NCBI GenBank assembly: GCA_030583845.1 | Contig: CP129478.1 | Coordinates: 279,175-343,174 of the forward strand | Length of the DNA: 64,000 bases | Direction of reading: 5' to 3' | DNA from: Candidatus Dojkabacteria bacterium | GTDB lineage: Bacteria; Patescibacteriota; Dojkabacteria; SC72; JAHDCA01 | Position numbers and translations under genes: made by a program | Shown: positions 17 through 53,945 of the stretch, piece by piece | Layout of the letters: each line of letters opens with the position of its first letter | How positions within the stretch are numbered: position 1 is the first letter of the stretch | The notes under the pieces: model-generated | Seen by the model: only the letters and a program-made list of their open reading frames with translations | Told to the model about the DNA's origin: nothing | The model's database searches: none

Positions 17-250
17 GGGTTCTCAGATACTCTCCTCCGTCCGACCACTAACCTTTGGTTAGTGGTCGGACGGAGGGACAGGGATATCTACGTGTGCCAC
101 TTCGTGGCAACTTCGCTGTCCGTCATGCTTGCCGCTCACGTTGCTCGCGGAGCATGTCCGCTCGAACCCCTGCTTTGCAGTGGGTTCTCAGATACTCTCC
201 TCCGTCCGACCACTAACCTTTGGTTAGTGGTCGGACGGAGGGACAGGGAT
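17..250. repeat. 69-bp perfect direct repeat (17-85 and 182-250). The second copy contains the last 15 nt of tRNA-Ser plus the downstream hairpin CTCCTCCGTCCGACCACTAACC/GGTTAGTGGTCGGACGGAGG.
   Basis: Seen directly: identical 69-mer GGGTTCTCAGATACTCTCCTCCGTCCGACCACTAACCTTTGGTTAGTGGTCGGACGGAGGGACAGGGAT at both positions. Copy B ends in the tRNA 3' acceptor/T-stem. Confidence 0.8.
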
Positions 251-322
251 TCGAACCCTGGGTACGGTTGCCCGCACAACGGTTTTCAAGACCGTCCCTT
301 TCGACCGCTCAGGCATCCCTCC
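236..322 (-). tRNA. tRNA-Ser (anticodon TGA), long variable arm, no encoded CCA
   Basis: Reverse complement reads GGAGGGATGCCTGAGCGGTCGAAAGGGACGGTCTTGAAAACCGTTGTGCGGGCAACCGTACCCAGGGTTCGAATCCCTGTCCCTCCG. It has an acceptor stem, a GGTTCGAATCC T-arm, anticodon loop CTTGAAA and an extra arm. The six-frame ORF 2..334 across it is spurious. Confidence 0.8.
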
Positions 323-371
323 AATCTGACGTGAGAATTATATCATAGCTACACCGATTTAGCTCTCGCGG

Positions 372-3760: not shown

Positions 3761-3977
3761 GCCGCTAACCTATAAGCCGTCAAGAGAAAGGCGGATTTAG
3801 CTTGGCGGTACAGTCTTTGCAAATTTAATGAAAATCACGGTGAAATAGCTATTGAGGTGAGTATCGAGCTACTTTACGGATATTTAGCCATCTAACATAC
3901 ACAGGGCCGCGGGCTATACTTGCTCATTAATGATGCGTAGCGAGCCGTGAAATGCTTCGCATTATAGGTTAGCGGCC
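3761..3977. repeat. REP-like element: inverted arms GCCGCTAACCTATAA (3761-3776) and TTATAGGTTAGCGGC (3962-3977) flanking about 185 bp
   Basis: Seen directly. Arms share the CCGCTAAC(Y)TATAG core of an 8-copy family. It lies in the divergent cysS/ybaB intergenic region. Confidence 0.7.
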
Positions 3978-10305: not shown

Positions 10306-10770
10306 CTATTTGGGTAATTTCTCCATGAACTCACCCAACATATCTTCCTGCATTCTATACATTATTTCAAGATCGTCGCGATTCTCGTCAAAATAATCCT
10401 CATGCTGATATCCAAAAAGATGCAGGATGCCATGCATAATCATCCTGATACACTCCTCCTTCACCGAAGAGACACCATTATCAACTACATTTTTCCTTAC
10501 ATCCTCAAGCGAGATATACACTTCGCCAAAGACATCGCTTCCCTCTGGCATATTGAACGCAAGCACATCAGTGCTACTGTCCGTGTCTCTGTTCTCCCTA
10601 TTTATCCGCTGCATCTCCTCTTCATCTACGAAGACAATATTTACCAAATTTTTCTGTTTGGCGAATTTGCTCTCAACTACTTCAGAGAGCATTTTAGCGA
10701 ACTGCTCTTCTTTCACTCCGAAGCTACTTTCAAGCTGATCTTTTGCCAATCCAAGTATCTCAAATTTCAT
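10306..10770 (-). CDS. ybeY: Endoribonuclease YbeY
   Basis: HGILHLFGYQHED zinc-binding motif. 154 aa. Confidence 0.85.
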   Translation of the reverse strand: MKFEILGLAKDQLESSFGVKEEQFAKMLSEVVESKFAKQKNLVNIVFVDEEEMQRINRENRDTDSSTDVLAFNMPEGSDVFGEVYISLEDVRKNVVDNGVSSVKEECIRMIMHGILHLFGYQHEDYFDENRDDLEIMYRMQEDMLGEFMEKLPK

Positions 10771-11222
10771 AATGCTGCCAATTTCTGCTCAACTACACTT
10801 TTTACTACACCACCATCGGCCTGACCTTTCAGCCTGCCCATTGCCTGACCCATCACCCTCCCCATATCTTGAGGCCCAGCGGCTCCGCTCTCTTTGATAA
10901 CAGCATCAACAACCGCACCGACCTCCTCTTCGCTCATCATTGCTGGCAAGAAACTATTCAGATAATCAAGCTGACCCTGGGTCGCTGAGACTAACTCCTC
11001 CCGCCCAGCGGCATTAAACTGCTCAATCGAATCCGAGAGCTTCTTTGCCTCTTTCCGCAGGACATTCTGCACCTCTTCATCGGTGAACTCCGAGCCTTTC
11101 TCAATCTCCGCATTCTTAACTGCCGCCATAGCGAGACGGGCAATTCCTGCCTTCATCTCATCTCCATCCTTCACTGCTTGAAATGTATCTGTCCTTAACT
11201 GGTCGATTATCCCTGAAGCCAT
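10767..11222 (-). CDS. yqeY: GatB/YqeY domain protein
   Basis: YqeY-like sequence (…AVKNAEIEKG…DEEVQNVLRKEAKK…) adjacent to rpsU, as in many Gram-positives. Confidence 0.65.
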   Translation of the reverse strand: MASGIIDQLRTDTFQAVKDGDEMKAGIARLAMAAVKNAEIEKGSEFTDEEVQNVLRKEAKKLSDSIEQFNAAGREELVSATQGQLDYLNSFLPAMMSEEEVGAVVDAVIKESGAAGPQDMGRVMGQAMGRLKGQADGGVVKSVVEQKLAAL

Positions 11223-14257: not shown

Positions 14258-14337
14258 ATCTAGTTCTGTAAAACAGTTAATGAGAAATTAAGATTTCCTT
14301 ATATCAAATTACATGATCTATACGAAATAATCAAACT

Positions 14338-14437
14338 GTTGCGCTGACCTATAGATCCGCCCACGTCCGGTTAGGCAAACATTCGATGCAGCAAGTCTGA
14401 AACCACCAAGTAGTCGGCTTATAGGTCAGCGCAACAA
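14338..14437. repeat. REP-like element: arms TTGCGCTGACCTATAG and CTTATAGGTCAGCGCAA flanking about 65 bp
   Basis: Seen directly. It is a variant (GCTGACCTATAG) of the family core and lies between the two Cys-rich surface-protein genes. Confidence 0.6.
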
Positions 14438-14453: not shown

Positions 14454-16095
14454 CTACCAGTCTCGCTCAAATCTCTTTCGAGACTTGCTTACCTTCGCCT
14501 CTTTGCCATATCTCTTATTGATTCCACCCTTTGCCGAGTGCAATGCATTGACAGAGATGATGTCGAATTTCTCAAAGGCTAGGTATGCACCGCTGATTAT
14601 GATCATCAGCACTCCAGCGACAACCTTTGACCTTGTCGAGTCGAAGATTCCTGTCACAGGAGTTGTGCATGAGACCATTACAGTACTCTCATCTGTGAAA
14701 GGCTCACCCTCCTCTGGAGTTGCAGTTACCAAGTTCTCAATCTGTCCGAAGGCTGACCTAGGCACACGCAATGTATAACTCAAAGTCATAGAATCACCTG
14801 GCTCAAACACCTCATTTATCTCCCAAGTGATGGTATTACCATCGACTACTCCAGGAGGAATGATGCTGCTCTGTATAATCCAATCTGGCTGCACAGCTTC
14901 ATCTAAGCTGATCAACTACTGTCTCAAGCGTACCCTGTGTCGTACCGTTATTACTTACTTCAATTACATACTCGACGTCTGCATATGGATCACCTGTAGT
15001 GGAACAGCTTGGCGTACCGACTTTCTCAATCTCCCATCCAGGATTTGGATCTGGGCAGAGACAATCAGACTGACAAGCACCATATGTACATGAGCCTGCA
15101 TTCATATCACACTCTTCACCCTCATCTTCATCGACTACTCCATCTCCACAGCTTGGAGGTGGCTCTTGAGGGCAGGTACAGTTCGTATTGCAAGCTCCAA
15201 ACTCACATGTATTTGCAGCTTCAGGGTCACAAGCCTCCCCTGGATCTACTGTCCCATCACCACAGTATGGATCTGGCTCAGGGACACAAGCTGATACGTC
15301 AAAATCATCTCTTGCGAGACACCATGCCAAGTAGTCACTCGCGCCAGCCTGGCTGGCATCGTTTGAGCTACAGCGAGTCCCATCAGCATCAATCCACACC
15401 ACATTAGCGTTTGTACCTCGACAGCCGGTCACATCATACTGCATAGTCACACAATATCCACGACCGCTACCTGAGCTGCCGTTTGCGTCGTTGCATGACA
15501 CAGGGATCTGCCCCTGGACATCTGTATCAAACGGGCAGTTAAATTCAGCTGTTTGGTATGAACAATTTTCGCTATTTTCACAGCTGAGCAGCCGTTATTG
15601 TTACAGGTTGGGGTTCCTTGACACTCCGTACCACCGATATGAGCCACATGTACCCTGCTCGTTCGGTGCTGCCTGATTGTTACCAGAGGCGTCTAGACAT
15701 TGTAACGGCGGTGTTACATCCGTGATCCCAGGAGCCGATTGTGGCCTTGGCCATCTGCATCACAACAAGGCTCTCCGAGGCGCCACCAGCGAATCTCCGG
15801 GATCTGCATCACACTCGTTGCCATTGCTGAAACCGGAGGAGTTATCCATGCCACAAAACTCCCTCCATCTGTCATTCACAATCTCCCGTGTAGCCTGCTG
15901 GACAATTCACACCAGGCGTACAGGGATTGTAAGAGTCAGTCCTGCACCAGCCGCATCGACCATCAGGACAGGTAAATGAGTTACAACATATCGAAGCCGC
16001 ACTATCATCTGGAGCGACCTGCTCGGTTCTATTAATAAGCCAAATAGCCACACCCGCAACAGCTGCCAGAAGAAAAAGCCCTCCTAGAGGAGATA
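14454..16095 (-). pseudogene. Second Cys-rich/DUF11 surface-protein gene broken into at least three reading frames (frameshifts near 14899-14915 and 15501-15650); pseudogene or sequence errors
   Basis: ORFs 14454..14915 (DUF11 plus C-terminal TM anchor), 14899..15501 and 15447..15647 are collinear pieces. The VVDQL|ISLDEAVQPDW junction aligns to VIDTLDPDVDMSW of the neighbouring intact gene. A signal-peptide-like segment (LGGLFLLAAVAGVAIWLI) is encoded near 16030-16090 in yet another frame. Confidence 0.45.
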
Positions 16096-17974: not shown

Positions 17975-18083
17975 TTATTAGATATTGCTAGAGATTAGTT
18001 TGCAAATTCATTAATCCCACAGGCATTATCTCAATAATGCACTCCTAACGAATTCGCTTCTCTAGTATATCAGATCCAACAAG

Positions 18084-18258
18084 TCACCCCGCTAACTTAT
18101 AGTGTGCGGCATTTCACAACACCTTAACCATGATTAGACTGCCAGTTTAACGAGAACCTCACAGATCAATATCCCAACCATGAACTCGAGATTTAACGGA
18201 GCTTTACAACCAGTATTGCATGAGCATCGAGGACCACACTATAAGTTAGCGGGGTGAC
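18084..18258. repeat. REP-like element: perfect 24-bp inverted arms GTCACCCCGCTAACTTATAGTGTG / CACACTATAAGTTAGCGGGGTGAC flanking 127 bp
   Basis: Seen directly. The right arm abuts the tsf stop codon. The element fills the tsf-frr gap where pyrH is usually found. Confidence 0.8.
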
Positions 18259-18995
18259 TATTTGCCAAATTCCCAGAGGAGAATCCTCTTTATGACGAGA
18301 GCCTCGCCCATCTGTGAGATCGCTTCGTCGAAAAGATTCTGCATCGTCTTTGAGTCATCCTTGAACCATTTCTGCTGCATTAGACAATTCTCTTCGAAAT
18401 ACTTTGCCATCTTACCCTCAATAATTTTCTCAAGGATATTCTCCGGCTTGCCCTCTTCCTTAGCCTCTCTGGTGAAAAGCTCGCGAAGCTCGGCTACCTT
18501 ATCTTCAGGGATAGACTCCTTCGATACAAACTTCGGCTTCATTGCTGCCACCTGCTTAGCAAGCTCATTTGTAAGCTCGATAAATTTCTCGTTTCGGGCT
18601 ACGAAATCTGTGATGCACTGCACCTCAACCAGAGCTACAGTCTTGCGGTCTGTACCGTGGTGGTATACACCGATTGCACCCTCGCCTACTTTCTCGTTGC
18701 TGTCGTCGACTGGATCAGACTCCCAACCTCGCTCCTTGATAATCTGCAAAGCCTTCTCAAAATCTTGCTCTGCGTCTTGCAATGCGATCTTACAAAGACC
18801 GATCTTTGCGCCAGTCATATTGTGGAGCCTGCTAACTGCATCACTTTTCTCGTTGATATAGGCGATTGCCTTTTCTATATCTCCACCAGTGACTTCTAAT
18901 GCCTCTCTACAAAGCCCGATTCCAGCCGATGTCTTATTACGCAGAAACATAATATCTTTTGCATCAATCTTTACTTTCGTATCTGCTTTTGCCAT
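18258..18995 (-). CDS. tsf: Elongation factor Ts
   Basis: Duplicated UBA-like N-terminal motifs (TSAGIGLCREALE / TGAKIGLCKIALQ) and position downstream of rpsB. Confidence 0.85.
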   Translation of the reverse strand: MAKADTKVKIDAKDIMFLRNKTSAGIGLCREALEVTGGDIEKAIAYINEKSDAVSRLHNMTGAKIGLCKIALQDAEQDFEKALQIIKERGWESDPVDDSNEKVGEGAIGVYHHGTDRKTVALVEVQCITDFVARNEKFIELTNELAKQVAAMKPKFVSKESIPEDKVAELRELFTREAKEEGKPENILEKIIEGKMAKYFEENCLMQQKWFKDDSKTMQNLFDEAISQMGEALVIKRILLWEFGK

Positions 18996-30383: not shown

Positions 30384-30414
30384 GAAACGCCACGCCAAGT
30401 CGCACTTTGCAAGT
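30384..30414. repeat. 25-bp palindrome copy 2 (extended to 14-bp arms: CGCCAAGTCGCACTT TGC AAGTGCGACTTGGCG) between mreB stop and mreC start
   Basis: Seen directly. Confidence 0.9.
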
Positions 30415-30477
30415 GCGACTTGGCGAAGTCCGACTTCGTGAAGGCGGAGTTTGTGAAACGGTTTGTGCAACTTGCAA

Positions 30478-31597: not shown

Positions 31598-31721
31598 CTC
31601 CCGCTAACTTATAGTATGTACTCAACCCTTAGTACTGCACTGTTTTCTCAAGATTCATTAAATCCGGGCTGGGCAATTGGTCACAGTGGACAGTGATGCA
31701 CGAACTATAAGTTAGCGGGAG
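31598..31721. repeat. REP-like element: arms CTCCCGCTAACTTATAGT / ACTATAAGTTAGCGGGAG flanking 88 bp
   Basis: Seen directly. Lies between the mreB start and rpmB stop. Confidence 0.8.
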
Positions 31722-33826: not shown

Positions 33827-34029
33827 TGTTTTAGGAATCTCTCGAACTCAGTCCTCGCTGCGCTGCGGAAGAATACTCCAAATGGCCGCAAAAGCATGCT
33901 TATGGTGAGGCGAGTTCTCAAACTCCCTAAAACATGGCATGATATGAATCACAACCATGAGGTGATGTTAAATAAAGCTTCGCACGCAGCGTAGCGAGTA
34001 TTAGAAGCTTTATTTAACATCACCGAGAA

Positions 34030-34895: not shown

Positions 34896-37800
34896 TTAAG
34901 CGGTAATTTGTGTTGGAGAAACCGATTGCGGACTATCAACTCTCCTCATCACTCCACTCTCAGTACTCCCGGTCCAATTATCCTCGGGAGGCTGCAGCTT
35001 GAAATTACCCGTTATCAGATCCAATTTCTTATTAATTGTGTACTTTACCTTCCCTTTGACCACTTTATGCTCACCGTTGAATTCCAATCTGTAAATCCCG
35101 GCGAATGAGACAATCCTATACCTTCCCTGCTCGTCAGTAATCACCTTCTGAACAGTTTTATCCGTCCCCTCTTCGATTAAAGTAATCTCCACACCGGCCA
35201 ACCTATTCCCTTTAACAGACCTTACCACACCATATGTATAGCCACTCTTAAGCATGCTCTGAATGATTAAAAGGCTTACAGGTATTAGATATAGCAGGAA
35301 GAATGTGAAGTTCAACCACGATGGAGAGGTAATAAGTACAAGGCCAGAGAGCACCATGCCTAGAACTAATAGTATCCTCAAAACAATAAATAGTGCATTC
35401 ACAAAACCGCTCTGTGCGACATTTACTAATACTGTGCTCCACCCGCTCTCAGCTCTATCTAGCGGCACTGCTCTATCTACCGAGTAATCCTTTTTGTGAC
35501 TAAATACTCCACCAAGGTAAAGGCTTTGATAGATCCCATCTGTAGAGGTCTTGATCGTCCTTGCAGGGAATCGGTAGCCAGTCTTAACTGCATCGATCCT
35601 ATATCTACCATTATCAAGGTATAGGTTATACACACCGTTATATCTGGTCACATCTGTATCAACCAACCTGCCAAAATCGTCGTAAACACGTACTATCACA
35701 TTATTTAGTGGGGCTTTGTCTTGAGCATCGTAGACGATACCGAACGACTCACGTTTGCGCGATTTCAAGAAGTTCAGCAGTGCGATCCAGAACCGCAAGG
35801 CCATGCCAGGGATCTCTGGTATGAAGAGTAATATGTAGCCCGCAGAAGCGGCTGTAGCCACTCCAGAAGTTACCAGATCGTACTCTCCCTCCTCCCACTC
35901 CTCCACCACCCGTCCAGTGGTCTCAACGATAGCTTCCCCAGCCCTACCTATTATCGACTGTGGTTGCGAGGTAGTCTGCCTTCCGCTACCATTATTTGCT
36001 GGTGCGGCTGGCTCCTCTCCGTCGTCTGGTTCTGCGCCTGGTACAGGCTCAGGTTCTGGTTCGGGTTCAGGATCCTGTTCTGGTTCAGGCGGTAAAGGTT
36101 CACTATTAGATATCAGCACCGTCTCTGAATAAACCTCCGAAAGGTTACCAACGGCGTCTCTAAGCCTCACATTTATTGTTACCGAGCCAGTTGCCGTAGT
36201 CCTGTATTCAAGATTTGCTTCGTACTGCTCCCACTCAGTTTCAATAAATTCTTCGCCTTCCGATATCATAATCTCGGCAACGCCAGAACCAGTATCGATC
36301 GCAGGTATCAAAATTACTATATCTCGAATATTACTACTGCCCGAATTGTCTGTAATAAATAGTTCGCCCACAGGAGGGATAGTGTCAACTCCGAAGGCAA
36401 CCTCTCCTTCGTTTGCAGTACTATAAACGACTGGGTAAAGGGTTGGATCATAGCCACCAACGCGCCAGTAGTAAGTAGAATCACCTAGAACTTGCCCTTC
36501 GTTACCTACAGCATATGTGCCGCCTGAAGGAGCCTGACCAACGGTGAAGGTATAACTACCTTGTGCTAGTGGTGCCGATGTGAAATCAACGACAGGGGTT
36601 GAGAAATCTTCGCTGTCATCAATCTGAATTCGATACTGGACTGTGTCCGTACTGTCCTCATCAGATATAGCAAATGCAAATACAGGGGCTGTATTAACGC
36701 TAAACTCTCCATCTATTACGGCACCCTCACCAAGATCGGTCGTCACCGGAATTCCGAAGTTCCAACCAACATTATTACCTAGGTTAGACCCAGTACCAAG
36801 TAGCTGAATAGCAGTCGGACTATTATTTACGCTATCGCTAACATCCACATACTGTATATTCCTTGAACCTTGAGGATCAATGTACCAAGGCTGACCTGGA
36901 GTTACAGAGACCAAATCAATATGATTGTTTTCTGTCCCCGCAATCGTAGTCATACCTTCTACTGTTATCACACTTCCTTCTAACACCTGGAAAGTAGCGA
37001 TGTTTGGCAATACCTCAATATTATTAAACTGATAGTTTCCTGTAAGGATCGTTGCACCACCGTCGAAGATCACTGTACCGTTATTATGATTAAAAATACC
37101 ACTATTGGTTAAGTCACCTGTGACAATAAGCTCATCAGATGGTGCGGTTAATGTACCGTTATAGTTAATGACCAATTGCGAAACCGTTGAAGTAGCAGGT
37201 AGCATCAGGTGACTCGAGACTTCAACCATAACATCACTATTAAAGCTCGTTGACCCACTTAGGTCAGTAACAGTTGTAGTTGAAACAGTAAGGTTGTCAA
37301 TGTTAAGAGAGTCAAATCCTGAGAAAAAGCCACCAGGATCCTGGGATAACTCAGCTAGGTAAAGTGTATCTCCTCCCTTCGTGAGCGTTCCCGTGCCAGT
37401 CAAACTGGCACCGCCCAGGTCATACCTGTACAGATTTATTGCTCCATTTGGAAGTACTGGATCGTTACCGACTGGAAGGCTACAGTTATTTGCGATTCCT
37501 AGAATAGAGTCTAGGCCGAATGTCACATGGTTAAACACGAAGTTTTCACAGTCTATTGGCTCATATGCGGTATTATCAAAGTGGATTGTTCCATTGTTAT
37601 GATCAAATGTTGTCGTGCCAGTCACCTGCATCTGGCCACGTAATGTAGTTGTGCCGGCGGAAGCGATCAGGTTTCCGCCAGAAAAGGTGAAGTCGCCAAA
37701 AGCGGAGTTCTCAGCAAGTGTGAGTGTGCCCGAACTAAAGGTCAGAGTTCCTGCAATGTCCAAACCGCTGTATCCAGATAGGTTTAATGTTGGACCTGAG

Positions 37801-40685
37801 ACTATCATATCCTCCAGTATATATAGACTCTCAAAGCCGCTAAGAACGCCTGTGCTATTTACAGTCAAATCACCCTGAATGGTCAGATCACCACTGCCCG
37901 AGAGAGTCCCCTGCAGTGATATTGCTGCTGTGACGACTGCATCGCCCCCGAGTGGTAATGAACAGCTAGACGCTACGGTTTTCGTACTCGTGTGATTAAA
38001 GCTCACGAGATTGAAAGTTGAATTATTACAATTAATACTGCCTGAGATTCCGTCAAAGGTAAGTACCCCTCCGTTATGATTAAATGATCCAGACCCACTT
38101 ATGGTGAAAGAACCGGAGACGGACATTGTATTTGAAGATGCTGTCATACTCCCACCACTGACTGATACCGAGGTAAGATCAGCAATCGGCGGCAAGGTTA
38201 TGCTTCCAGAGCTTACTGCAACAGTAGTCGCTGCTATACCTGTCATTATCGATGTGTTAAACGTCCCACCTGCGATGGTAATAGAGTTCATCGAACCATT
38301 ACTGAAACCGCTTACCACTCCACCACTATTCACTGTGAGTATCCCCATTGCTGTAAGCGTACCACTCCCACTCACATTACCGTTGACTGTCAAACCGCCG
38401 GAGTTGTTTACCCCAACGGTGGGATTATTTCCTAATGCAATAGTGCAGGTGGAGGATATAGTCTTAACCCCTGTATTGCTAAAAATTACCTGATTAAATG
38501 ACACACTGTTACAGTTGAGTGTTGCAGTGCTGCCATCAAATATTATCGTCCCACTATTGTGGTTGAATACAGCACTACCTGAGATGGTAAGCGCGCCTGC
38601 TAAGTTAAGTGTCGAGGATGAGGCTGTAAAGGTTCCGGCGCTCATGGAAAGAGTTCCATTTATATCTGCAACTGGGGGTAAAGTTACGCTACCTGAAGTC
38701 ATAAGCAGCTGACCTGAGAGGGTCAAACTACTTATCCCGCTGAGATTCAGAGTGGCACCAGATACAGTCAAGCCGCCACCTGAGATGCTAGAGAATCCAC
38801 TAAAACTAGCGCCACTGTTGAGAGTAAATAGTGAACCAGTAGGAAAGGTCAAAGTACCAGTTCCACTTAAGGTACCTGCCACCGTTAGCCCTCCGTTTCC
38901 GAGTAGAGTTGGGTTGTTCCCAAGTGGTATTGTGCAACTTGATGAAATAGTCTTACTGCCACTATTGTTAAACGTCACAAGGTTAAACAGTTTCCCTCCG
39001 CAGGTTACTGTCCCAGAGCTACCCGTAAAGCTTACTGTACCGTTATTGTGATTAAAGGTTGAGCTAGCGTTAAAGTTTATACCTCCAGTAATAGTCATAG
39101 TCCCAGATGGGGCGGTAACATTTGCAGCTGCATTTAGGTTCAGTGTACCGAAACTCGTCCCAGACGGTGGTAACACGATTGTCCCATTAACTATTAGCGA
39201 CGAGGTGGAAACAAACGATGTGTAGCTACTAAAATCGCCGTCTACAACAATTAACGATGCTATGGCAAGTCCACTAAAGCCACTGAAAACTGAACCTGCA
39301 GAAGCAGTCATACTCCCATTGTTTTTAGTAAAAGTTCCAGTGCCACTCAAAGTACCATACAACTGGATAAATCCAGATGCTGTGGTTGTGTAATTGTTTC
39401 CTACTGGTAGGGTACAATCACTGTTGAAAGTCCGGCTTGAGCTACTTGTGATTTGCACAGTGTTGAAGGTTACATTTCCACACGCAATCACAGCTGATGA
39501 CGACCCATCAAAAATTACAATTCCACTGTTGTTATTAAATGTTGCAGCGCTGTCGATTGTTACCGCATTGCCTAGGTTCGTATTACCGGACGAGGCAGTA
39601 AAAATTGCGCCACTATTAAGCGTAACCGTACTATTTGCATCAAAGTTGAAACTGTTCGCACTATATGTACCTGCGGACTGAGTATAGGCACCATTCATAA
39701 TCAGGGCTCGTCCCTGGGTTACTACTCCGCTATACCCAGCATTAATACTTACAGCCGTTATAGTACCACCAAAAGAGCTGTCTACCGTAGAATTTTTACT
39801 GCTTGTACCATCAAATATTACTGAGTCCGCTGAGGTAGGACACACATCGGTGCTCCAGTTAGTACACTCGCTCCAGTTCTCCGTAGCTCCACCACCATCC
39901 CAGGTGTAGGTAGCCGCTTTCGCCGGAGATCTAAAAAAATTAAAAAACTCATACGAGGATAACGATACTAGAACAACCTGCGCACAGAGGAAAAGAGTGA
40001 AGGTGAGGGTGACAGCTAACGCCGGATAGGCTCGAACTCTGGATAGCCTTAGATCGTCTTTGCGCTGAGGGACATTGAGATCCTTGTCGCCCCGGGAGAT
40101 CAGAAAGTAGAGTATCGAGAGAAAGAAGGTCGTTATTACCTGGTAGAAAATCCAATTCGCTCGCAGGATAGCTTTGGAGATAGGACCGTTACCCTTCTGC
40201 GCCATGTCAGCGGACTGATTTGAGAGGTGAGCATACCTGTATGCTTGCGAAGCAATATACTTAACAAATCGGAACCATCTCGAGCCATCCTCCACTCTGC
40301 CCTCTACTAGTGAAGAGATCTCATTGATAAGCCTGTCGAGAAAATCGGAGTCGTCTTTATCCAGTACTACATAATCGCTGGGAAGATCACCCAGTTTCTG
40401 ATTTGCCGCGGTCAGTACTACCACCTTTTTTGATGACTCGTTAAGTACCTTGTTGGTTCTCACATACTCTATTATTTCTAATCCACCATACTGAGGGAGT
40501 GTCGCATCGATTACTATGATCTCTGGATGGACTACATATAGATAGCCGAGACCGTCCATGCCGTTAGAGCATGTATAGATATTTAACTTCTCCTTGCGAA
40601 ATGAGGAGTAGAGCAGGTTTTTCAGTACAAGCCGTATGACAGAATCGTCTTCTATTAATACTATATTTACGGAATCCCTTCCCAT
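34896..40685 (-). CDS. Giant 1929-aa protein: N-terminal CheY-like receiver domain, TM segments, about 1300-aa tandem beta-helix-like repeat region, Pro/Glu linker, further TM segments and two PEGA/CarboxypepD_reg-like domains
   Basis: REC residues in place (IEDD, VIDATLP, VVLTAAN, LDKDD). TM candidates ILRANWIFYQVITTFFLSILYFLI and AYPALAVTLTFTLFLCAQVVLVSL. Six or more repeats of about 150 aa around FNHNNGT[VI]xFDG…C…N…C…LP[LV]GN. EPEPEPEPEP linker. Later TM helices and domains such as VRVYDDFGRLV…GVYNLYL…GRYRIDAVKTGYRF and GVEITLIEEGTDKTVQKVITDEQGRYRI. Confidence 0.6.
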   Translation of the reverse strand: MGRDSVNIVLIEDDSVIRLVLKNLLYSSFRKEKLNIYTCSNGMDGLGYLYVVHPEIIVIDATLPQYGGLEIIEYVRTNKVLNESSKKVVVLTAANQKLGDLPSDYVVLDKDDSDFLDRLINEISSLVEGRVEDGSRWFRFVKYIASQAYRYAHLSNQSADMAQKGNGPISKAILRANWIFYQVITTFFLSILYFLISRGDKDLNVPQRKDDLRLSRVRAYPALAVTLTFTLFLCAQVVLVSLSSYEFFNFFRSPAKAATYTWDGGGATENWSECTNWSTDVCPTSADSVIFDGTSSKNSTVDSSFGGTITAVSINAGYSGVVTQGRALIMNGAYTQSAGTYSANSFNFDANSTVTLNSGAIFTASSGNTNLGNAVTIDSAATFNNNSGIVIFDGSSSAVIACGNVTFNTVQITSSSSRTFNSDCTLPVGNNYTTTASGFIQLYGTLSGTGTFTKNNGSMTASAGSVFSGFSGLAIASLIVVDGDFSSYTSFVSTSSLIVNGTIVLPPSGTSFGTLNLNAAANVTAPSGTMTITGGINFNASSTFNHNNGTVSFTGSSGTVTCGGKLFNLVTFNNSGSKTISSSCTIPLGNNPTLLGNGGLTVAGTLSGTGTLTFPTGSLFTLNSGASFSGFSSISGGGLTVSGATLNLSGISSLTLSGQLLMTSGSVTLPPVADINGTLSMSAGTFTASSSTLNLAGALTISGSAVFNHNSGTIIFDGSTATLNCNSVSFNQVIFSNTGVKTISSTCTIALGNNPTVGVNNSGGLTVNGNVSGSGTLTAMGILTVNSGGVVSGFSNGSMNSITIAGGTFNTSIMTGIAATTVAVSSGSITLPPIADLTSVSVSGGSMTASSNTMSVSGSFTISGSGSFNHNGGVLTFDGISGSINCNNSTFNLVSFNHTSTKTVASSCSLPLGGDAVVTAAISLQGTLSGSGDLTIQGDLTVNSTGVLSGFESLYILEDMIVSGPTLNLSGYSGLDIAGTLTFSSGTLTLAENSAFGDFTFSGGNLIASAGTTTLRGQMQVTGTTTFDHNNGTIHFDNTAYEPIDCENFVFNHVTFGLDSILGIANNCSLPVGNDPVLPNGAINLYRYDLGGASLTGTGTLTKGGDTLYLAELSQDPGGFFSGFDSLNIDNLTVSTTTVTDLSGSTSFNSDVMVEVSSHLMLPATSTVSQLVINYNGTLTAPSDELIVTGDLTNSGIFNHNNGTVIFDGGATILTGNYQFNNIEVLPNIATFQVLEGSVITVEGMTTIAGTENNHIDLVSVTPGQPWYIDPQGSRNIQYVDVSDSVNNSPTAIQLLGTGSNLGNNVGWNFGIPVTTDLGEGAVIDGEFSVNTAPVFAFAISDEDSTDTVQYRIQIDDSEDFSTPVVDFTSAPLAQGSYTFTVGQAPSGGTYAVGNEGQVLGDSTYYWRVGGYDPTLYPVVYSTANEGEVAFGVDTIPPVGELFITDNSGSSNIRDIVILIPAIDTGSGVAEIMISEGEEFIETEWEQYEANLEYRTTATGSVTINVRLRDAVGNLSEVYSETVLISNSEPLPPEPEQDPEPEPEPEPVPGAEPDDGEEPAAPANNGSGRQTTSQPQSIIGRAGEAIVETTGRVVEEWEEGEYDLVTSGVATAASAGYILLFIPEIPGMALRFWIALLNFLKSRKRESFGIVYDAQDKAPLNNVIVRVYDDFGRLVDTDVTRYNGVYNLYLDNGRYRIDAVKTGYRFPARTIKTSTDGIYQSLYLGGVFSHKKDYSVDRAVPLDRAESGWSTVLVNVAQSGFVNALFIVLRILLVLGMVLSGLVLITSPSWLNFTFFLLYLIPVSLLIIQSMLKSGYTYGVVRSVKGNRLAGVEITLIEEGTDKTVQKVITDEQGRYRIVSFAGIYRLEFNGEHKVVKGKVKYTINKKLDLITGNFKLQPPEDNWTGSTESGVMRRVDSPQSVSPTQITA

Positions 40686-41060: not shown

Positions 41061-41155
41061 TCAGTTTGCTCTTTAATTTAAGAACCTAAGCCCCCCCGAC
41101 CACTTGACGGTAATGGTTACACCGTATTTGGTAGAGATTGGGTCAAGTGGTCGGG

Positions 41156-41229
41156 GGGCCCATAGTTTCAATCGGTTAAAACAGCGGTCTCCAAAACCGT
41201 AGTTCTCCGTTCGAGTCGGAGTGGGCCTG
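41156..41229 (+). tRNA. tRNA-Trp (anticodon CCA), discriminator G, no encoded CCA
   Basis: GGGCCCATAGTTTCAATCGGTTAAAACAGCGGTCTCCAAAACCGTAGTTCTCCGTTCGAGTCGGAGTGGGCCTG, preceded by a 17-bp-stem hairpin. Classic position upstream of secE-nusG. Confidence 0.8.
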
Positions 41230-42188: not shown

Positions 42189-42193
42189 GCTCT

Positions 42194-42236
42194 ACCGCTA
42201 ACTTATAGTGCGCTTCGCACTATAAGTTAGCGGTAA
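42194..42236. repeat. REP-like tight hairpin ACCGCTAACTTATAGTGCG ctt CGCACTATAAGTTAGCGGT just after the nusG stop
   Basis: Seen directly. No U-tract follows. Confidence 0.8.
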
Positions 42237-42710: not shown

Positions 42711-42781
42711 TACTCCTTCGCTAAAGCTACGGAGTATTGTTAACATAATTAGCGGCATAAATTTTAGACAGATTTACAAAA

Positions 42782-44205: not shown

Positions 44206-44250
44206 TGTCCGCTAACTCATAGTGAGATACTCGCTATGAGTTAGCGGACA
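44206..44250. repeat. REP-like tight hairpin (GTCCGCTAACTCATAGTGAG / CTCGCTATGAGTTAGCGGAC) after rplJ
   Basis: Seen directly. One mismatch in the stem. Confidence 0.75.
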
Positions 44251-44699: not shown

Positions 44700-44750
44700 A
44701 TCACCCCGCTAACCTATAAGTCGATGCGACTTATAGGTTAGCGGGGTGAT
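44700..44750. repeat. REP-like tight hairpin ATCACCCCGCTAACCTATAAGTCG atgc GACTTATAGGTTAGCGGGGTGAT after rplL
   Basis: Seen directly. Confidence 0.8.
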
Positions 44751-44826: not shown

Positions 44827-45486
44827 ATGATGGATTTCACACAGTGGGTTACAGACATTGGAATGACAGAGCAGATGCTACTTATGCTGCTCTATATTCC
44901 TGTGATCGTCACTCTTATTAACTTCACCAGGTATGTGGTTGGATTTAAGACTTTGGGAATCTATGCCCCAATGGTTCTAGCATATGCCTATATCTTCACC
45001 GGGATACGTTTCGGTTTACTTATCACCGCTGCGGTAATCGCTGGAACTCTCATCACCTACTCTATCTTCAAGAAGGTGAGAATGCACTATATCTCCAGAA
45101 TCTCTGTCAACTATATATTGGTAACCTTTTTCATTATCTTCGTGATTGCTTTTAATGAAATTTCGCCATTCCCCATCACTACTGAGAACCATAACGTTGC
45201 TACAATTCCACCACTTGGTGTGATCTTGATCGTAACTCTTTCTGACTTCTTCATTAAACAGTATGTTAAGAAGGACCTGGGTAGCTCACTTAGAGCTGTG
45301 GCCGAGACTGTAGTCATCGGTATTGCTGGCTGGGCACTCCTAAGACTCCCATTTCTACAGGTATTTATCCTAGATAACCTATGGCTGCAGCCGATCCTCT
45401 TAGGGGTAAATATTGCACTTGGTAAATATACAGGGGTAAGATTTAAAGAGCTCTTCAGATTTCAACGGGTTATTAAAGACGAGTAA
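44827..45486 (+). CDS. Seven-TM integral membrane protein (no catalytic motif), first gene of the ATP-grasp locus
   Basis: 219 aa with about seven hydrophobic helices. Its position immediately upstream of a RimK-like ATP-grasp mirrors the 7TM partner of RLAN-type amidoligase systems (family assignment unverified). Confidence 0.5.
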   Translation: MMDFTQWVTDIGMTEQMLLMLLYIPVIVTLINFTRYVVGFKTLGIYAPMVLAYAYIFTGIRFGLLITAAVIAGTLITYSIFKKVRMHYISRISVNYILVTFFIIFVIAFNEISPFPITTENHNVATIPPLGVILIVTLSDFFIKQYVKKDLGSSLRAVAETVVIGIAGWALLRLPFLQVFILDNLWLQPILLGVNIALGKYTGVRFKELFRFQRVIKDE

Positions 45487-45536
45487 GCGTCTAAAGCATA
45501 TTTAACCTTTTCACTTAATCATTTCCATCTACAAGC

Positions 45537-46997
45537 ATGATAGCCACAGCCATTTTTGGGCAGAAAGAAAAAGAGGTGTTGGGGATCAACAGGCGCAACC
45601 AGAACTATATCCGTGCCTTCAATCCCCCATCAGCTCGTGGTAAGGCCGACAACAAGCTCACGACCAAGAAGATTCTCAATCAGGTTGGCATCAAGACACC
45701 TGAACTGTACAAAGTAATCCGCAGCAAGCAGCAGCTCAAATTCTTCGACTGGAACTCATTGCCCAAGAGCTACGTCATCAAGCCAAACCGCGGCTCTCAA
45801 GGAAGCGGCATCATAGTCTTCTACGGCCAGAAGAAGAATAGCCTCGAATGGATCCGACCGAGCGGCCAGACCATGGATCCACACGAGATCTCCCTGCACA
45901 TGGAGAAGATTCTGGACGGCCGTCTATCTATGGGTAACCGCAAAGATATTGTGATAATAGAGGATAGAATTCGAACCCATAGTGAATTGAAGCGCTACTC
46001 ATACAAGGGTGTTCCCGACATTCGCCTCATCGTCTTCAACAGAGTGCCTATCATGGCCATGGTACGCCTGCCCACCCGTCGCTCCGACGGTAAAGCCAAC
46101 CTACACGCTGGTGCGATCTGTGCTGGTATCGACATAGCATCAGGCGTCACTACAAATGCAATGCACCTTCGCAAGCAGCCGCTGATTGAGGACACATATG
46201 AAGACCTCGAATTTACCCTAGACCAGAATCCTCCCCTACCCCTGAGAGGTATCAAGATCCCATTTTGGGAAGAGATCCTACAGATAGCAGTAAAATGCCA
46301 AGAGGTTAGCGGCCTAGGCTATCTAGGCGTCGACATCGTAATCGACCAAGAGCATGGCCCAATGGTGCTTGAGCTGAACGCACGTCCCGGGCTAGGCATC
46401 CAGACAGCAAACAAGACAGGTCTACGGGCTCGATTAGAGCGAGTCGCTGGGCTGCAAATCAAGAGCAATAAGCATGGAATCCGCGTGGCTAAGAGCCTAT
46501 TCGGTGGTGAGGTCGAGGAAGAGATCGAGGTGATCAGCGGTAAGCGGGTAGTCAATCTTGTAGAGAAGGTAAATGTATACCACTCCGAGCATGCAGACAA
46601 GAAGGAGCTGGTGAGTGCAATGTTGGACACAGGAATTACTACATCTCGAATCGACGAGGGGCTCGCCTCTCGGCTTGGTTTCACAGACGCTCTGAAAAGC
46701 TTTTCCGAGCATAAACCACCCCGTGAGTTCGGTAGTTTCACAGAAGCCCAACAGTACATAGATGCCCATGAGGAAGAGATTACCTCACACCCACAGATTT
46801 TACGTCTCGCTAAGATATCAGAAGATGGCAAAATCAATGTAAAGCCTGTTATTAGCCTTGAAATCAAGGTCGCAGGTGAAAGACGCGCGATGGACTTTGT
46901 TGTAAGCACTCAAAGTGATATGCTCTATCCAGTGCTGATCGGTCGCGCAGAGCTGAAGAGCTACCTGATAGACGCCAGCAAGACCTTCACACGCTAA
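45537..46997 (+). CDS. RimK-like ATP-grasp amidoligase with N-terminal INRRN region and C-terminal retropepsin-like (PF05618-type) peptidase domain
   Basis: N-terminal GINRRNQNYI (the motif of alpha-L-glutamate-ligase-related proteins). Central ATP-grasp elements (…IIEDRI…RLIVFNRVPIMAMVRLP…DGKANLHAGA…LGVDIVID…VLELNARPG). C-terminal …MDFVVSTQSDMLYPVLIGRAELKSYLIDASKTF matches the LLGRraL…VDps signature of the ATP-dependent-zinc-protease/retropepsin-like family. Confidence 0.6.
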   Translation: MIATAIFGQKEKEVLGINRRNQNYIRAFNPPSARGKADNKLTTKKILNQVGIKTPELYKVIRSKQQLKFFDWNSLPKSYVIKPNRGSQGSGIIVFYGQKKNSLEWIRPSGQTMDPHEISLHMEKILDGRLSMGNRKDIVIIEDRIRTHSELKRYSYKGVPDIRLIVFNRVPIMAMVRLPTRRSDGKANLHAGAICAGIDIASGVTTNAMHLRKQPLIEDTYEDLEFTLDQNPPLPLRGIKIPFWEEILQIAVKCQEVSGLGYLGVDIVIDQEHGPMVLELNARPGLGIQTANKTGLRARLERVAGLQIKSNKHGIRVAKSLFGGEVEEEIEVISGKRVVNLVEKVNVYHSEHADKKELVSAMLDTGITTSRIDEGLASRLGFTDALKSFSEHKPPREFGSFTEAQQYIDAHEEEITSHPQILRLAKISEDGKINVKPVISLEIKVAGERRAMDFVVSTQSDMLYPVLIGRAELKSYLIDASKTFTR

Positions 46998-47016
46998 CCT
47001 AACTCTTCATTTGAAT

Positions 47017-48006: not shown

Positions 48007-48028
48007 TTTGAGCTCACAGAAGGGATCC

Positions 48029-48223
48029 TTAGCGTACCCAGAGCTGCCACACTACTACTGAGCTGAGGACTGCAATAACTGCAATTAGCATGAACACAAG
48101 GTATGTATTTGCCCTCATAAGCCTTCGTGATTTAGCGAGCTGGAGCTTCTGGTTTACAGTGCTACCACTCTTCTTTGCAGTTGTAATCTTCATCTCTTTT
48201 GCCATATCGCCAGTATACCACAA
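48029..48223 (-). CDS. Small hypothetical tail-anchored membrane protein (doubtful)
   Basis: 64-aa ORF with a C-terminal hydrophobic helix YLVFMLIAVIAVLSSVVVWQLW. It overlaps the glyQS promoter region. Confidence 0.2.
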   Translation of the reverse strand: MWYTGDMAKEMKITTAKKSGSTVNQKLQLAKSRRLMRANTYLVFMLIAVIAVLSSVVVWQLWVR

Positions 48224-48226
48224 GCA

Positions 48227-48557
48227 AAAGCGAAATTTGCATTGCCTGCCTGCTTAGAGCTATAATACCAGCAGAAAGAGATCTTTGAAGCAAACACAGA
48301 GAGTCGACCCAAGGCATGAATTGCCGGATTTGAGAGGTTGGCGAGCTTACAAATTGGCACTCTTTTCGCTTGAGAAAGCAGCGTGATAAAAGAATATCGA
48401 GAGATTATCGCAGCTTATATGGCGCGGTAATAATGCGGGTGGAACCGCGGTAGTACATTTTTGAAATATACCGTCCCGCTAACTTATAGTCCATAGCCTC
48501 GGCGACGGAGTATAAGTTAGCGGGACGGTTTTTATTTATATATAATCATTTAAGAAT
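48227..48557 (+). promoter_or_regulatory. glyQS T-box riboswitch leader: promoter TTGCAT-18-TATAAT (48227-48256), AGAGA and GGC specifier region, T-box sequence AATGCGGGTGGAACCGCGG (48432-48450), terminator hairpin (48470-48529) plus U-tract (48530-48540)
   Basis: Seen directly: 17/19 match to the AAUUAGGGUGGNACCGCGG consensus, with UGGA (N=A, matching the tRNA-Gly discriminator U). Antiterminator pairing GCGGG/CCCGC and CGGUA/UACCG around a UGGAACC bulge. The terminator is a REP-family hairpin followed by TTTTTATTTAT immediately before the glyQS start. Confidence 0.7.
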
Positions 48558-48575
48558 ATGGAAAAAGAGAAAAGC

Positions 48576-49973: not shown

Positions 49974-50011
49974 AACCAGGGTAATTGTTAAATTTATTGC
50001 CAGCTGCCAAT

Positions 50012-51694: not shown

Positions 51695-51701
51695 GGATGT
51701 A

Positions 51702-52661: not shown

Positions 52662-52709
52662 TGAAATTCAGATAAGCCTGCGAGGTGTCTAGGTGACTAC
52701 AGGATGCGA

Positions 52710-53870: not shown

Positions 53871-53920
53871 ATGGTTACCATATTCAATCTTACCGCCGAT
53901 TCTAACAGAAATATTAGCCT

Positions 53921-53945
53921 TAACCAAGGGAAGTCGCACTTTGCA
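53921..53945. repeat. 25-bp palindrome copy 3 between the mreB-paralogue stop and the DUF1704 gene start
   Basis: Seen directly. Confidence 0.9.

What the first reader, a model, noticed from the sequence alone, without database searches (positions are those of the whole stretch)
18084..18258. Eight-copy REP-like hairpin family (core CCGCTAAC(Y)TATAG) occurring as tight hairpins and as inverted arms around variable inserts
Tight-hairpin copies are at 42194-42236, 44206-44250, 44700-44750 and 48470-48529. Arm-pair copies enclosing 65-187 bp of unrelated sequence are at 3761-3977, 14338-14437, 18084-18258 and 31598-31721. Arms are up to 24 bp and perfect. All copies are intergenic, several abut stop codons (tsf, nusG, rplJ, rplL), and most lack U-tracts, so they look like REP/BIME-type elements (mRNA 3' stabilisers or recombination sites) rather than simple terminators. 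One copy acts as the glyQS T-box terminator. The arm-pair copies could be miniature inverted-repeat elements.
Basis: seen in the sequence. Interest (0 to 1): 0.6.

Follow-up and report, generated by a model that had tools for sequence, protein, structure and literature searches.

The report
Dispersed hairpin repeat shared with rRNA
A tiny-genome (Dojkabacteria, CPR) bacterium carries a family of near-perfect hairpin repeats just after its genes. The same hairpin module also caps ribosomal RNA helices in related bacteria, so it is a REP-like repeat with an unusual link to rRNA insertions.

Summary
The core CCGCTAACYTATAG gives 16 hits against 0.48 expected, forming eight inverted pairs at the stated coordinates, all intergenic. 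Four are tight 20-25 bp hairpins. Four have arms around 66-186 nt of unique sequence.

The window comes from a Candidatus Dojkabacteria MAG. Across 25 copies from several genomes the 14-nt core is almost invariant, while the outer and inner stem positions covary (18 of 24 pairs; 0 of 500 shuffles reach this).

Close relatives gain, lose, decay and swap copies site by site. More distant relatives have none.

Unexpectedly, the same module caps peripheral rRNA helices in related Patescibacteria: 23S H25, H45 and H98, and 16S h44 and h6. These are the classical intervening-sequence and expansion sites. There the G·U pairs lie on the rRNA sense strand.

My reading is a REP/IVS-like dispersed palindromic module. 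It is tolerated or used as a 3'-end hairpin, and one copy has been recruited as the glyS T-box terminator. The spreading mechanism and any RNase III processing are inferred, not shown. The inserts match nothing known and there are no target-site duplications, so the MITE reading is weak. I rate it a new variant of a known kind, of moderate interest.

The parts
18077..18264 (-). Arm-pair copy between tsf and frr (the focal finding). The 25-26 bp perfect stem AGTCACCCCGCTAACTTATAGTGTG / CACACTATAAGTTAGCGGGGTGACT encloses about 124-128 nt of unique sequence. The stem starts directly after the tsf TAG stop.
   Evidence: RNA fold -77 kcal/mol, z = -7.4. No Rfam match. Insert unique by BLAST.
3761..3977 (.). 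Arm-pair copy (15-nt perfect arms, 186-nt unique insert) in the divergent region between cysS (minus strand) and ybaB-recR (plus strand). It lies upstream of the promoter-like sites for both genes.
14337..14436 (-). Arm-pair copy with variant core GCGCTGACCTATA (17-nt perfect arms, 66 nt between them), lying between two genes for secreted proteins.
   Evidence: Covariance-model hit of 27.5 bits.
31598..31721 (-). Arm-pair copy (18-nt perfect arms, 88 nt between them) between rpmB and mreB, 6 nt after the rpmB stop. It is absent from the same spacer in relative L010.
42193..42236 (+). Tight hairpin (20 bp, 3-nt loop, -33 kcal/mol) between nusG and rplK. An orthologous copy is present in L010/L011, with compensatory changes in the outer and inner stem.
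44206..44250 (+). Tight hairpin (21 bp, -37 kcal/mol) between rplJ and rplL. The core variant AACTCATAG / CTATGAGTT is changed on both arms. An orthologous copy is present in L010.
44700..44750 (+). Tight hairpin (24-25 bp perfect, -45 kcal/mol) after rplL. L010 has a hairpin at the same site with the same outer stem (AATCACCCC/GGGGTGATT) but a different interior.
48470..48538 (+). Copy with an internal bulged extension, followed by TTTTTATTT. This is the terminator hairpin of the glyS leader.
48276..48481 (+). T-box-like leader of glyS. It has a promoter-like TTGCAT-17-TATAAT at 48237-48265, an AGAGA motif, a GGC-A specifier candidate and the T-box sequence GGGUGGAACCGCGG at 48437. The antiterminator 3' strand overlaps the repeat's 5' arm.
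   Evidence: Rfam RF00230 at 30.1 bits, E = 7e-5 in a local search, below the gathering score of 93. Sequence.
42711..42755 (+). Decayed copy in the rplK|rplA spacer. The right-arm remnant CATAA-TTAGCGGCATAAATTTTAGA aligns with the intact copy of relative L018. The left side has been remodelled into a small hairpin.

Best explanation
The eight loci are copies of one lineage-restricted dispersed palindromic repeat in a Candidatus Dojkabacteria (Patescibacteria/CPR) genome.

Anatomy (shown). The conserved unit is a 14-17 bp duplex, (T)CCCGCTAACYTATAG paired with CTATARGTTAGCGGG(A). It always occurs as an inverted pair and forms the middle of an 18-25 bp stem. The outer stem, the inner stem and the interior (3 nt to 186 nt) are copy-specific, but the stem parts stay complementary.

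Dynamics (shown). Copies are born, lost, decayed and exchanged between close relatives.

rRNA link (shown). The same module caps peripheral rRNA helices in related Patescibacteria: 23S H25, H45 and H98, and 16S h44 and h6. These are the classical intervening-sequence and expansion-segment sites.

What it is (inferred). It behaves like a REP/IVS-type selfish-but-tolerated hairpin module. It spreads at the DNA level into places where a very stable hairpin is harmless or useful.

How it works (inferred). Seven of the eight window copies lie on the transcribed strand directly 3' of a gene or in a leader. When transcribed, such a copy folds into a perfect duplex of -33 to -45 kcal/mol. That should block 3' exonucleases and delimit transcripts, and it is long enough to be an RNase III substrate, as in rRNA intervening sequences and Neisseria nemis/Correia elements. 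With a U tract it acts as an intrinsic terminator; this is the copy recruited into the glyS T-box.

Unknown. The copying mechanism has not been identified.
For: Enrichment and strict pairing: (16 hits against 0.48 expected).

Location: all copies are intergenic, in 11.7% of the sequence.

Covariation: in 25 copies from 8 loci, 88% of cells are paired and 18 of 24 pairs change on both sides. None of 500 shuffles reaches these values, and the slid controls give 29-39% pairing. Columns 7-20 are nearly invariant in sequence.

Stems: 20-25 bp, z-scores -9 to -14.

Taxon: NusG and EF-Ts are 100% identical to proteins of a Candidatus Dojkabacteria MAG with a 1,036,382-bp contig.

Turnover between relatives at 80-84% protein identity:
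- nusG|rplK and rplJ|rplL copies are shared with L010.
- The tsf copy is a tight hairpin of another subtype in L013.
- The mreB|rpmB copy is absent from L010.
- L010 has copies at mreC|mreB, after dcd, and after rpmG where the window has none.
- L018 has a copy that overlaps the rplK stop codon, where the window keeps only a decayed remnant.
- At rpmG|tRNA-Trp the window carries a different palindrome in place of the family copy.

Absence elsewhere: no copies in L015 (17.5 kb), L016, L019 or L021, by a 14-mer scan allowing up to 3 mismatches and by the covariance model.

rRNA copies:
- L005: 16S h44 tip and 23S H25, H45, H98.
- L002: 23S H98, at the same position as in L005 although that region is only 80.6% identical.
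- L003 (Saccharibacteria): 16S h6 and a variant in the V2 region.
- In rRNA copies G·U outnumbers A·C 27 to 5 on the sense strand, p = 1e-4.

Literature:
- Short ORF-less insertions at the 23S IVS sites are common in CPR and are presumed to be RNase III-type intervening sequences (PMC11270868).
- H98 is generally missing in CPR (PMC9297842), so these are insertions.
- RNase III processes the nemis hairpins of Neisseria and needs stems longer than about 20 bp (as cited in PMC4524435).
Against: - No mobilising enzyme is visible. There is no transposase, RAYT or RNase III gene in the window or in the loci held when one search was run (window plus L001-L017).
- No target-site duplication or clean filled/empty boundary could be defined.
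- Intergenic copies are almost perfectly Watson-Crick. In an unbiased fixed-window count they show no strand asymmetry (G·U 17, A·C 17). RNA-level selection is therefore demonstrated only for the rRNA copies.
- The 3761-3977 copy sits between divergent promoter-like sites and may not be transcribed as a whole.
- Only 64 kb of the source genome could be read. The rRNA loci come from other organisms, and this genome's own rRNA operon was not seen.
- The origin of the unique 66-186 nt interiors is unexplained.
Confidence: 0.55

Rival explanations
1. A dedicated, sequence-specific RNA processing signal. A double-strand-specific endonuclease (RNase III or a Mini-III-like enzyme) or an RNA-binding protein recognises the CCGCUAACUUAUAG duplex. 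The cell uses it as common punctuation, to excise rRNA insertions and to cut polycistronic mRNAs and tRNA leaders.
For: - The core sequence is invariant while flanking stem positions covary freely. This points to constraint on the sequence itself and not only on pairing.
- The identical core occurs in rRNA of distant lineages (Dojkabacteria and Saccharibacteria).
- Copies abut stop codons and the 5' ends of tRNA genes (L010 8994 and 9657, L018 118).
- The rRNA positions are the classical RNase III intervening-sequence sites H25 and H45 (PMC11270868).
- Stems reach the two helical turns or more that RNase III needs.
Against: - Copies are dispensable. Close relatives lack them at the same sites, more distant relatives have none, and one copy has decayed.
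- One copy lies between divergent promoters.
- No cognate enzyme was identified.
- Bacterial RNase III is not known to need a 14-bp sequence (background knowledge).
- Core invariance can equally reflect recent copying or gene conversion.
Confidence: 0.2
2. Miniature inverted-repeat transposable elements. The 14-24 nt arms are terminal inverted repeats bound by a transposase acting in trans. The arm-pair copies are the primary form, and the tight hairpins are internally deleted derivatives.
For: - The motif always occurs in inverted pairs, and interior length runs as a continuum from 3 to 186 nt.
- Presence and absence differ between relatives.
- The motif carries stop codons, and in L004 and L018 it supplies the stop codon of the upstream ORF.
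Against: - No target-site duplications.
- Interiors are unrelated to each other and to anything held.
- Complementarity continues beyond the conserved core into copy-specific outer sequence. This is not expected if the core ends were the element termini.
- A 43-nt element is very short for transposition.
- No transposase gene in 64 kb.
Confidence: 0.12
3. Ordinary transcription terminators or attenuators that look alike only through common descent or convergence. On this view they are not a repeat family with its own dynamics.
For: - Copies sit after genes.
- The glyS copy has a U tract and sits in a T-box.
- Distant relatives have canonical terminators after rplL.
Against: - Seven of eight copies lack a U tract.
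- Several lie inside operons (nusG|rplK, rplJ|rplL).
- 28 nt of identical core at non-orthologous sites, and inside rRNA, cannot be convergence.
Confidence: 0.06
4. A DNA-level protein-binding or uptake sequence, similar to the Neisseria DUS or Haemophilus USS motifs that often occur as inverted pairs in terminators. Such a motif could be used by a naturally competent CPR cell.
For: - A short conserved motif in inverted pairs at gene ends.
- dprA is present in the window.
- Intergenic copies show no RNA strand asymmetry.
Against: - No single (unpaired) copies and none in coding sequence at 1 mismatch or fewer. Uptake sequences are frequent as singletons and inside genes (background knowledge).
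- The density of 1 per 8 kb is low for an uptake sequence.
- rRNA copies show sense-strand G·U pairs.
Confidence: 0.04

Closest known systems
REP / BIME / REPIN elements of Proteobacteria
   Same: Short dispersed intergenic palindromes placed 3' of genes and transcribed into stable hairpins. They turn over rapidly between relatives and are sometimes recruited for host functions.
   Different: No conserved flanking tetranucleotide and no RAYT gene seen. The stems are nearly perfect and longer (20-25 bp). The interior can expand to 186 nt of unique sequence. The same module also occurs inside rRNA helices. The host is a CPR bacterium with a genome of about 1 Mb.
rRNA intervening sequences (IVS) in 23S helices 25 and 45 (Salmonella, Campylobacter, Coxiella and others), and the short ORF-less rRNA insertions of CPR bacteria (PMC11270868)
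   Same: In L005 the module sits exactly at H25 and H45, and also at H98 and the 16S h44 tip. It has a conserved basal stem and a variable interior, which is the IVS architecture.
   Different: Classical intervening sequences are not known to have many sibling copies between protein-coding genes. Excision by RNase III is untested here. The window itself contains no rRNA.
Correia / nemis elements of Neisseria
   Same: Inverted arms form long hairpins in mRNAs that RNase III cleaves. They are intergenic and polymorphic.
   Different: Correia elements have a conserved interior, defined size classes and TA target duplications. None of these is found here.
Rickettsia palindromic elements and organelle palindromic repeats (yeast mitochondrial GC clusters, Volvox and Lobosphaera palindromes; PMC4524435)
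   Same: Selfish hairpin repeats in reduced genomes that settle in intergenic DNA and in tolerant parts of RNA genes. They have been proposed as RNA processing sites.
   Different: Unrelated sequences and hosts. Rickettsia elements insert in frame within ORFs, which is not seen here. The most that happens here is that a copy supplies the stop codon.
T-box riboswitch terminators
   Same: The 48470 copy forms the terminator helix that competes with the antiterminator of a glyS T-box leader.
   Different: The terminator stem is built from a genome-wide repeat module. The Rfam score is well below the gathering threshold.

Membership tests
REP/REPIN (RAYT-mobilised) | Short intergenic palindromes able to fold as a hairpin, dispersed in many copies | tested here: met
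   8 paired copies in 64 kb against 0.48 single hits expected. 6-7 copies in about 31 kb of relative L010/L013. Genome-wide number not obtainable.
REP/REPIN (RAYT-mobilised) | Conserved 5' flanking tetranucleotide (GTAG-like) at the foot of the hairpin | tested here: not met
   The bases flanking the core differ from copy to copy and covary with the opposite arm.
REP/REPIN (RAYT-mobilised) | A RAYT (IS200/IS605-like Y1 transposase) gene in the genome, usually flanked by the repeats | not testable with these tools
   None among the window's proteins scanned with Pfam. The remaining ~0.97 Mb of the genome could not be fetched.
MITE / Correia-like | Terminal inverted repeats | tested here: met
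   15-30 nt complementary arms.
MITE / Correia-like | Target-site duplication flanking the element | tested here: not met
   No direct repeats at the flanks. Sites filled in one genome and empty in another give no defined boundaries.
MITE / Correia-like | Shared internal sequence and size classes | tested here: not met
   The interiors of 66, 88, 128 and 186 nt, and the two L010 interiors, share no similarity.
rRNA intervening sequence (IVS) | Extra stem-loop inserted at the tip of 23S helix 25 or 45 (or 16S helix 6) | tested here: met
   L005 H25 and H45. L003 16S h6. Also H98 in L005 and L002. These are related loci, not the window.
rRNA intervening sequence (IVS) | Excised from the precursor by RNase III without re-ligation, giving fragmented rRNA | not testable with these tools
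   Requires RNA data.
Intrinsic (Rho-independent) terminator | G+C-rich hairpin immediately followed by a U tract | tested here: not met
   Met only by the 48470 copy. The other seven lack a T run.
T-box leader (RF00230), for the 48276-48538 region only | Conserved T-box sequence, a specifier loop, and mutually exclusive antiterminator and terminator helices upstream of an aminoacyl-tRNA synthetase gene | tested here: inconclusive
   GGGUGGAACCGCGG, a GGC-A candidate, overlapping helices and a downstream glyS are all present. The covariance score is 30.1 bits against a gathering score of 93.
DNA uptake sequence (DUS/USS) | Very frequent single copies, many inside coding regions | tested here: not met
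   No unpaired copy with 1 mismatch or fewer, and none in ORFs.

The most novel reading that the evidence does not exclude
The CCGCUAACUUAUAG duplex is a sequence-specific RNA punctuation signal of Dojkabacteria and some other Patescibacteria. One double-strand-specific nuclease or binding protein would recognise it both in rRNA precursors, where it excises or marks the insertions at H25, H45, H98, h44 and h6, and in polycistronic mRNAs and tRNA leaders. A reduced genome would then use a single hairpin to define many RNA ends. The closest analogies are mitochondrial tRNA punctuation and the archaeal bulge-helix-bulge motif.
Probability: 0.15. Interest if true: 0.8.

Novelty: new variant of a known kind. 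Interest (0 to 1): 0.5.

Why it matters
CPR/Patescibacteria are known for odd rRNA insertions and tiny genomes, but their non-coding repeats and RNA 3'-end biology are essentially undescribed.

If this is right, the short ORF-less rRNA insertions of these bacteria and their intergenic hairpins are one and the same element. That would give a concrete origin for the rRNA insertions: a spreading palindromic module. It would also supply a testable candidate for a common RNA-processing or stabilising signal. The recruitment of a repeat copy as a riboswitch terminator would be a clear example of a repeat taken over for a host function.

There is a practical point too. These palindromes break short-read assemblies: several Logan contigs end inside them. 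They could also serve as lineage markers.

Tried and rejected
- Rfam on the whole window (gathering threshold) and on four sub-regions (E-value mode). Only tRNAs and a weak T-box were found. Of the three inserts scanned, none matches a family.
- BLAST of the four window inserts and two L010 inserts against the window and all loci. No similarity, so a shared cargo or a conserved small RNA is rejected.
- I asked whether the cysS-proximal copy was a second T-box. There is no T-box match, and the element lies upstream of the promoter-like sites.
- Viral contig scan for the hairpin: 0 hits.
- Attempts to extend the window with end genes failed. argS is not on record, and the contigs carrying the ABC ATPase gene stop at the tRNA-Ser palindromes.
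- A strand-asymmetry test for RNA-level selection in intergenic copies. A first count (G·U 13, A·C 1) was biased by my stem-extension rule and is discarded. The unbiased fixed-window count is 17 to 17.
- I considered that the tsf arm-pair arose by insertion into the loop of the tight hairpin seen in L013. The two copies differ in subtype and in distance from the stop codon, so they look like independent events.
- A DUS-like uptake sequence, a dimeric operator and chance convergence of terminators were each considered and rated low. See the rival explanations.

Full report
**Observation.** The motif CCGCTAACYTATAG (up to 2 mismatches) occurs 16 times in the window, against 0.48 expected from dinucleotide-preserving shuffles. 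Every hit with 1 mismatch or fewer is one arm of an inverted pair.

- Four are tight hairpins: 42193-42236, 44206-44250, 44700-44750 and 48470-48529.
- Four are arm pairs, at 3761-3977, 14337-14436, 18077-18264 and 31598-31721, with 186, 66, 128 and 88 nt between the arms.
- The tight copies fold into 20-25 bp, almost perfectly Watson-Crick stems of -33 to -45 kcal/mol, with z-scores of -9 to -14. The arm-pair copies fold with the arms as the closing stem.
- All eight lie in the 11.7% of the window that is not gene.
- Identical sequences appear in independent assemblies from other sequencing runs, so this is not an assembly artefact.

**Context.** The window is from a Candidatus Dojkabacteria (Patescibacteria/CPR) MAG. 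Its NusG and EF-Ts are 100% identical to proteins annotated in an NCBI MAG with a 1,036,382-bp contig. Gene assignments come from translations and Pfam.

| Copy | Position |
|---|---|
| 18077-18264 | starts directly after the tsf stop, upstream of frr (rpsB-tsf-[copy]-frr, minus strand) |
| 31598-31721 | between rpmB and mreB |
| 42193-42236 | nusG\|rplK |
| 44206-44250 | rplJ\|rplL |
| 44700-44750 | after rplL |
| 14337-14436 | between two secreted-protein genes |
| 48470-48529 | in the leader of glyS |
| 3761-3977 | between the divergently transcribed cysS and ybaB-recR, upstream of promoter-like sites for both |

So seven copies are expected to be transcribed with a neighbouring gene, and one may not be. 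Only the glyS copy is followed by a U tract. No transposase, RAYT or RNase III gene is in the window. A ybeY gene is present.

**The T-box copy.** A local Rfam search gives a T-box match at 48276-48481. It scores only 30 bits (E = 7e-5 locally), against a gathering score of 93. However, several canonical features are present:

- the box GGGUGGAACCGCGG at 48437;
- an AGAGA motif;
- a GGC-A specifier candidate;
- a promoter-like site upstream;
- glyS immediately downstream.

The 3' strand of the antiterminator (CCGUCCCGC) overlaps the 5' arm of the repeat copy, which is followed by TTTTTATTT. It is a repeat copy recruited as a terminator.

**Family structure.** I collected 25 copies from the window and from related loci. 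Each was oriented on the sense strand, and the two arms were joined by an artificial GAAA loop.

- 88% of cells form standard pairs, against 29-39% when the partner column is slid.
- 18 of 24 pairs show changes on both sides.
- None of 500 shuffles reaches the observed values.
- Columns 7-20, the core, are almost invariant in sequence.
- The six outer and four inner stem positions covary freely.
- Position 15/38 is U-A in 12 copies, C-G in 7 and U·G in 6, and never A·C.

The unit is therefore a conserved duplex embedded in a longer, copy-specific stem. That pattern is not what one expects if the core ends were the termini of a transposon.

**Relatives.** NusG and EF-Ts homologues led to syntenic contigs.

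Organism L010/L013 (NusG 81%, EF-Ts 84% identical) has the family:

- at the orthologous nusG|rplK and rplJ|rplL sites, with an identical core and compensatory differences in the outer and inner stem and the loop;
- at mreC|mreB and after dcd, both as arm pairs;
- before a tRNA gene;
- between rpmG and tRNA-Trp;
- after tsf, where it is a tight hairpin of another subtype placed 25 nt after the stop.

It lacks the mreB|rpmB copy. After rplL it has a hairpin with the same outer stem but a different interior.

L018 (NusG 80%) differs again:

- It has a copy before tRNA-Trp.
- It has a second copy whose TAA is the rplK stop codon.
- It has none at nusG|rplK.
- At the rplK|rplA site the window keeps only a decayed remnant, 42711-42755.

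At rpmG|tRNA-Trp the window carries a different palindrome (CCGACCACTTGAC...) where L010 and L018 carry the family copy.

L015 (EF-Ts 84%; 17.5 kb), L016, L019 and L021 have no copy. This holds for the 14-mer scan allowing up to 3 mismatches and for a covariance model built from ten tight copies. L019 and L021 have ordinary U-tract terminators after rplL.

The family is therefore lineage-restricted, with birth, death, decay and replacement on a short evolutionary scale. This is the behaviour of a dispersed repeat, not of a fixed regulatory site.

**The rRNA link.** Exact-pattern scans of the species-representative genomes and of the JGI metagenomes returned only five loci. Four of them are rRNA.

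- L005 and L006 are the same rRNA operon, 46% G+C. The module caps the tip of 16S helix 44 and 23S helix 25, helix 45 and helix 98.
- L002, a Dojkabacteria MAG, has it at 23S helix 98, at exactly the same position, although that 23S region is only 80.6% identical to L005.
- L003, a Saccharibacteria MAG, has it at 16S helix 6, and a variant (CAGCTATCCTATAG / CTATAGGTTAGCTG) closes a 57-nt insertion in the V2 region.
- L004, another Dojkabacteria MAG, has an intergenic copy between convergent genes. Its TAG is the stop codon of the upstream ORF.

In the rRNA copies, G·U pairs on the sense strand outnumber A·C 27 to 5 (p = 1e-4). The covariance model also scores the sense strand consistently higher. 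These copies are therefore maintained as RNA helices.

H25 and H45 are the classical sites of RNase III-excised intervening sequences. A survey of CPR rRNA genes found many short ORF-less insertions exactly there and presumed them to be of that type (PMC11270868). H98 is generally missing in CPR (PMC9297842). The hairpin at that site is therefore better seen as an insertion than as the native helix. I found no paper that links such insertions to intergenic repeats. Those searches cover only the held library.

**Interpretation.** The best-supported reading is a REP/IVS-like dispersed palindromic module.

Shown:
- the anatomy;
- the covariation;
- the turnover between relatives;
- the occurrence in rRNA, and RNA-level maintenance there.

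Inferred:
- It spreads at the DNA level by an unidentified route. Candidates are a trans-acting enzyme encoded elsewhere, or gene conversion or template switching between hairpins.
- The intergenic copies act as 3'-end hairpins when transcribed, either as barriers to 3' exonucleases or as RNase III substrates. Their perfect 20-25 bp stems meet the length that RNase III requires. The precedents are rRNA intervening sequences and Neisseria nemis elements.

The evidence does not show RNA-level selection for the intergenic copies. They are nearly perfect palindromes, and an unbiased count of G·U against A·C on the sense strand is 17 to 17. An earlier count of 13 to 1 was biased by my stem-extension rule and is discarded.

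The origin of the unique 66-186 nt interiors is unexplained. They match no Rfam family (three of the four were scanned in E-value mode), and none of the four matches any other or anything else held.

**Rivals.**
- A dedicated sequence-specific processing signal (0.2) would explain the invariant core and its presence in distant rRNAs. It sits badly with the dispensability and decay of copies.
- A MITE with terminal inverted repeats (0.12) lacks target duplications, shared interiors and defined termini.
- Plain terminators (0.06) are excluded for seven of the eight copies by the missing U tract and by 28 nt of identity at non-orthologous sites.
- An uptake-sequence or DNA-site model (0.04) is contradicted by the complete absence of single copies.

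**Verdict.** This is a new variant of a known kind (REP-like dispersed palindromes). Three features set it apart: a CPR host, a conserved duplex embedded in copy-specific stems, and siblings in rRNA at the intervening-sequence and expansion sites. Interest is moderate (0.5). It would be high if the common-processing-signal reading proved true.

Noticed in passing
window 17-85 and 182-250 (tRNA-Ser at 233-323, minus strand): A perfect 69-nt direct repeat. Each copy holds the last 18 nt of tRNA-Ser and a 43-nt palindrome (CCTCCGTCCGACCACTAACC ttt GGTTAGTGGTCGGACGGAGG) that pairs with the tRNA's 3' acceptor strand. It looks like an att-type or partial tRNA duplication. Logan contigs L023 and L024 end here.
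   Followed up: partly
window 41092-41158: A second palindrome family (core CCGACCACT(A/T)(A/G)AC, also present in the tRNA-Ser palindromes). It has 17-nt perfect arms and a 33-nt interior and abuts the 5' end of tRNA-Trp. Relatives L010 and L018 carry the CCGCTAAC family hairpin at this exact site, so the hairpin has been swapped at one locus.
   Followed up: partly
window 30393-30425 and 33961-34024: Two further perfect hairpins that do not belong to the family. One is 15 bp, between mreC and mreB. The other is 21-nt arms between tRNA-Thr and tRNA-Tyr. This genome seems generally rich in long perfect intergenic hairpins. Relatives L015 and L016 have almost none.
   Followed up: partly
window 34896-40685 (minus strand): A 1929-aa ORF whose only clear domain is an N-terminal response-regulator receiver. 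It sits between tRNA-Thr and rpmG. It is absent from the syntenic region of relative L010, where dcd, tRNA and rpmG are adjacent.
   Followed up: no
window 44827-53939: A cluster directly after rplL in place of rpoBC. It contains a 7TM-transglutaminase-like protein, four ATP-grasp/RimK-like proteins (two of them after glyS) and a MATCAP-like (tyrosine carboxypeptidase family) protein. The first part is conserved in relatives L010, L019 and L021.
   Followed up: no
window 14454-15501 (minus strand): Two overlapping ORFs (14454-14915 and 14899-15501) look like one secreted, Cys-rich protein split by a frameshift. The orthologous gene in L015 is a single 547-aa CLIPPER-domain protein.
   Followed up: no
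L013 and L014 at 10744-10777; L024 start: Independent short-read assemblies end inside the tsf hairpin of the relative, or start inside the 3761-3977 element. The palindromes appear to break assemblies.
   Followed up: partly
L015 14331-14359 and L021 around 15100-15140: In relatives that lack the family, small terminator-like hairpins carry GCTAACTTTTAGC or GTAACTTTAGTG in the stem or loop. This resembles one arm of the core. They could be chance matches, remnants or precursors.
   Followed up: no
L005 around 1245-1320 and 1330-1360: The same 23S rRNA has further insertions relative to the bacterial model, of 72 nt and about 24 nt in domain I. They do not carry the motif.
   Followed up: no
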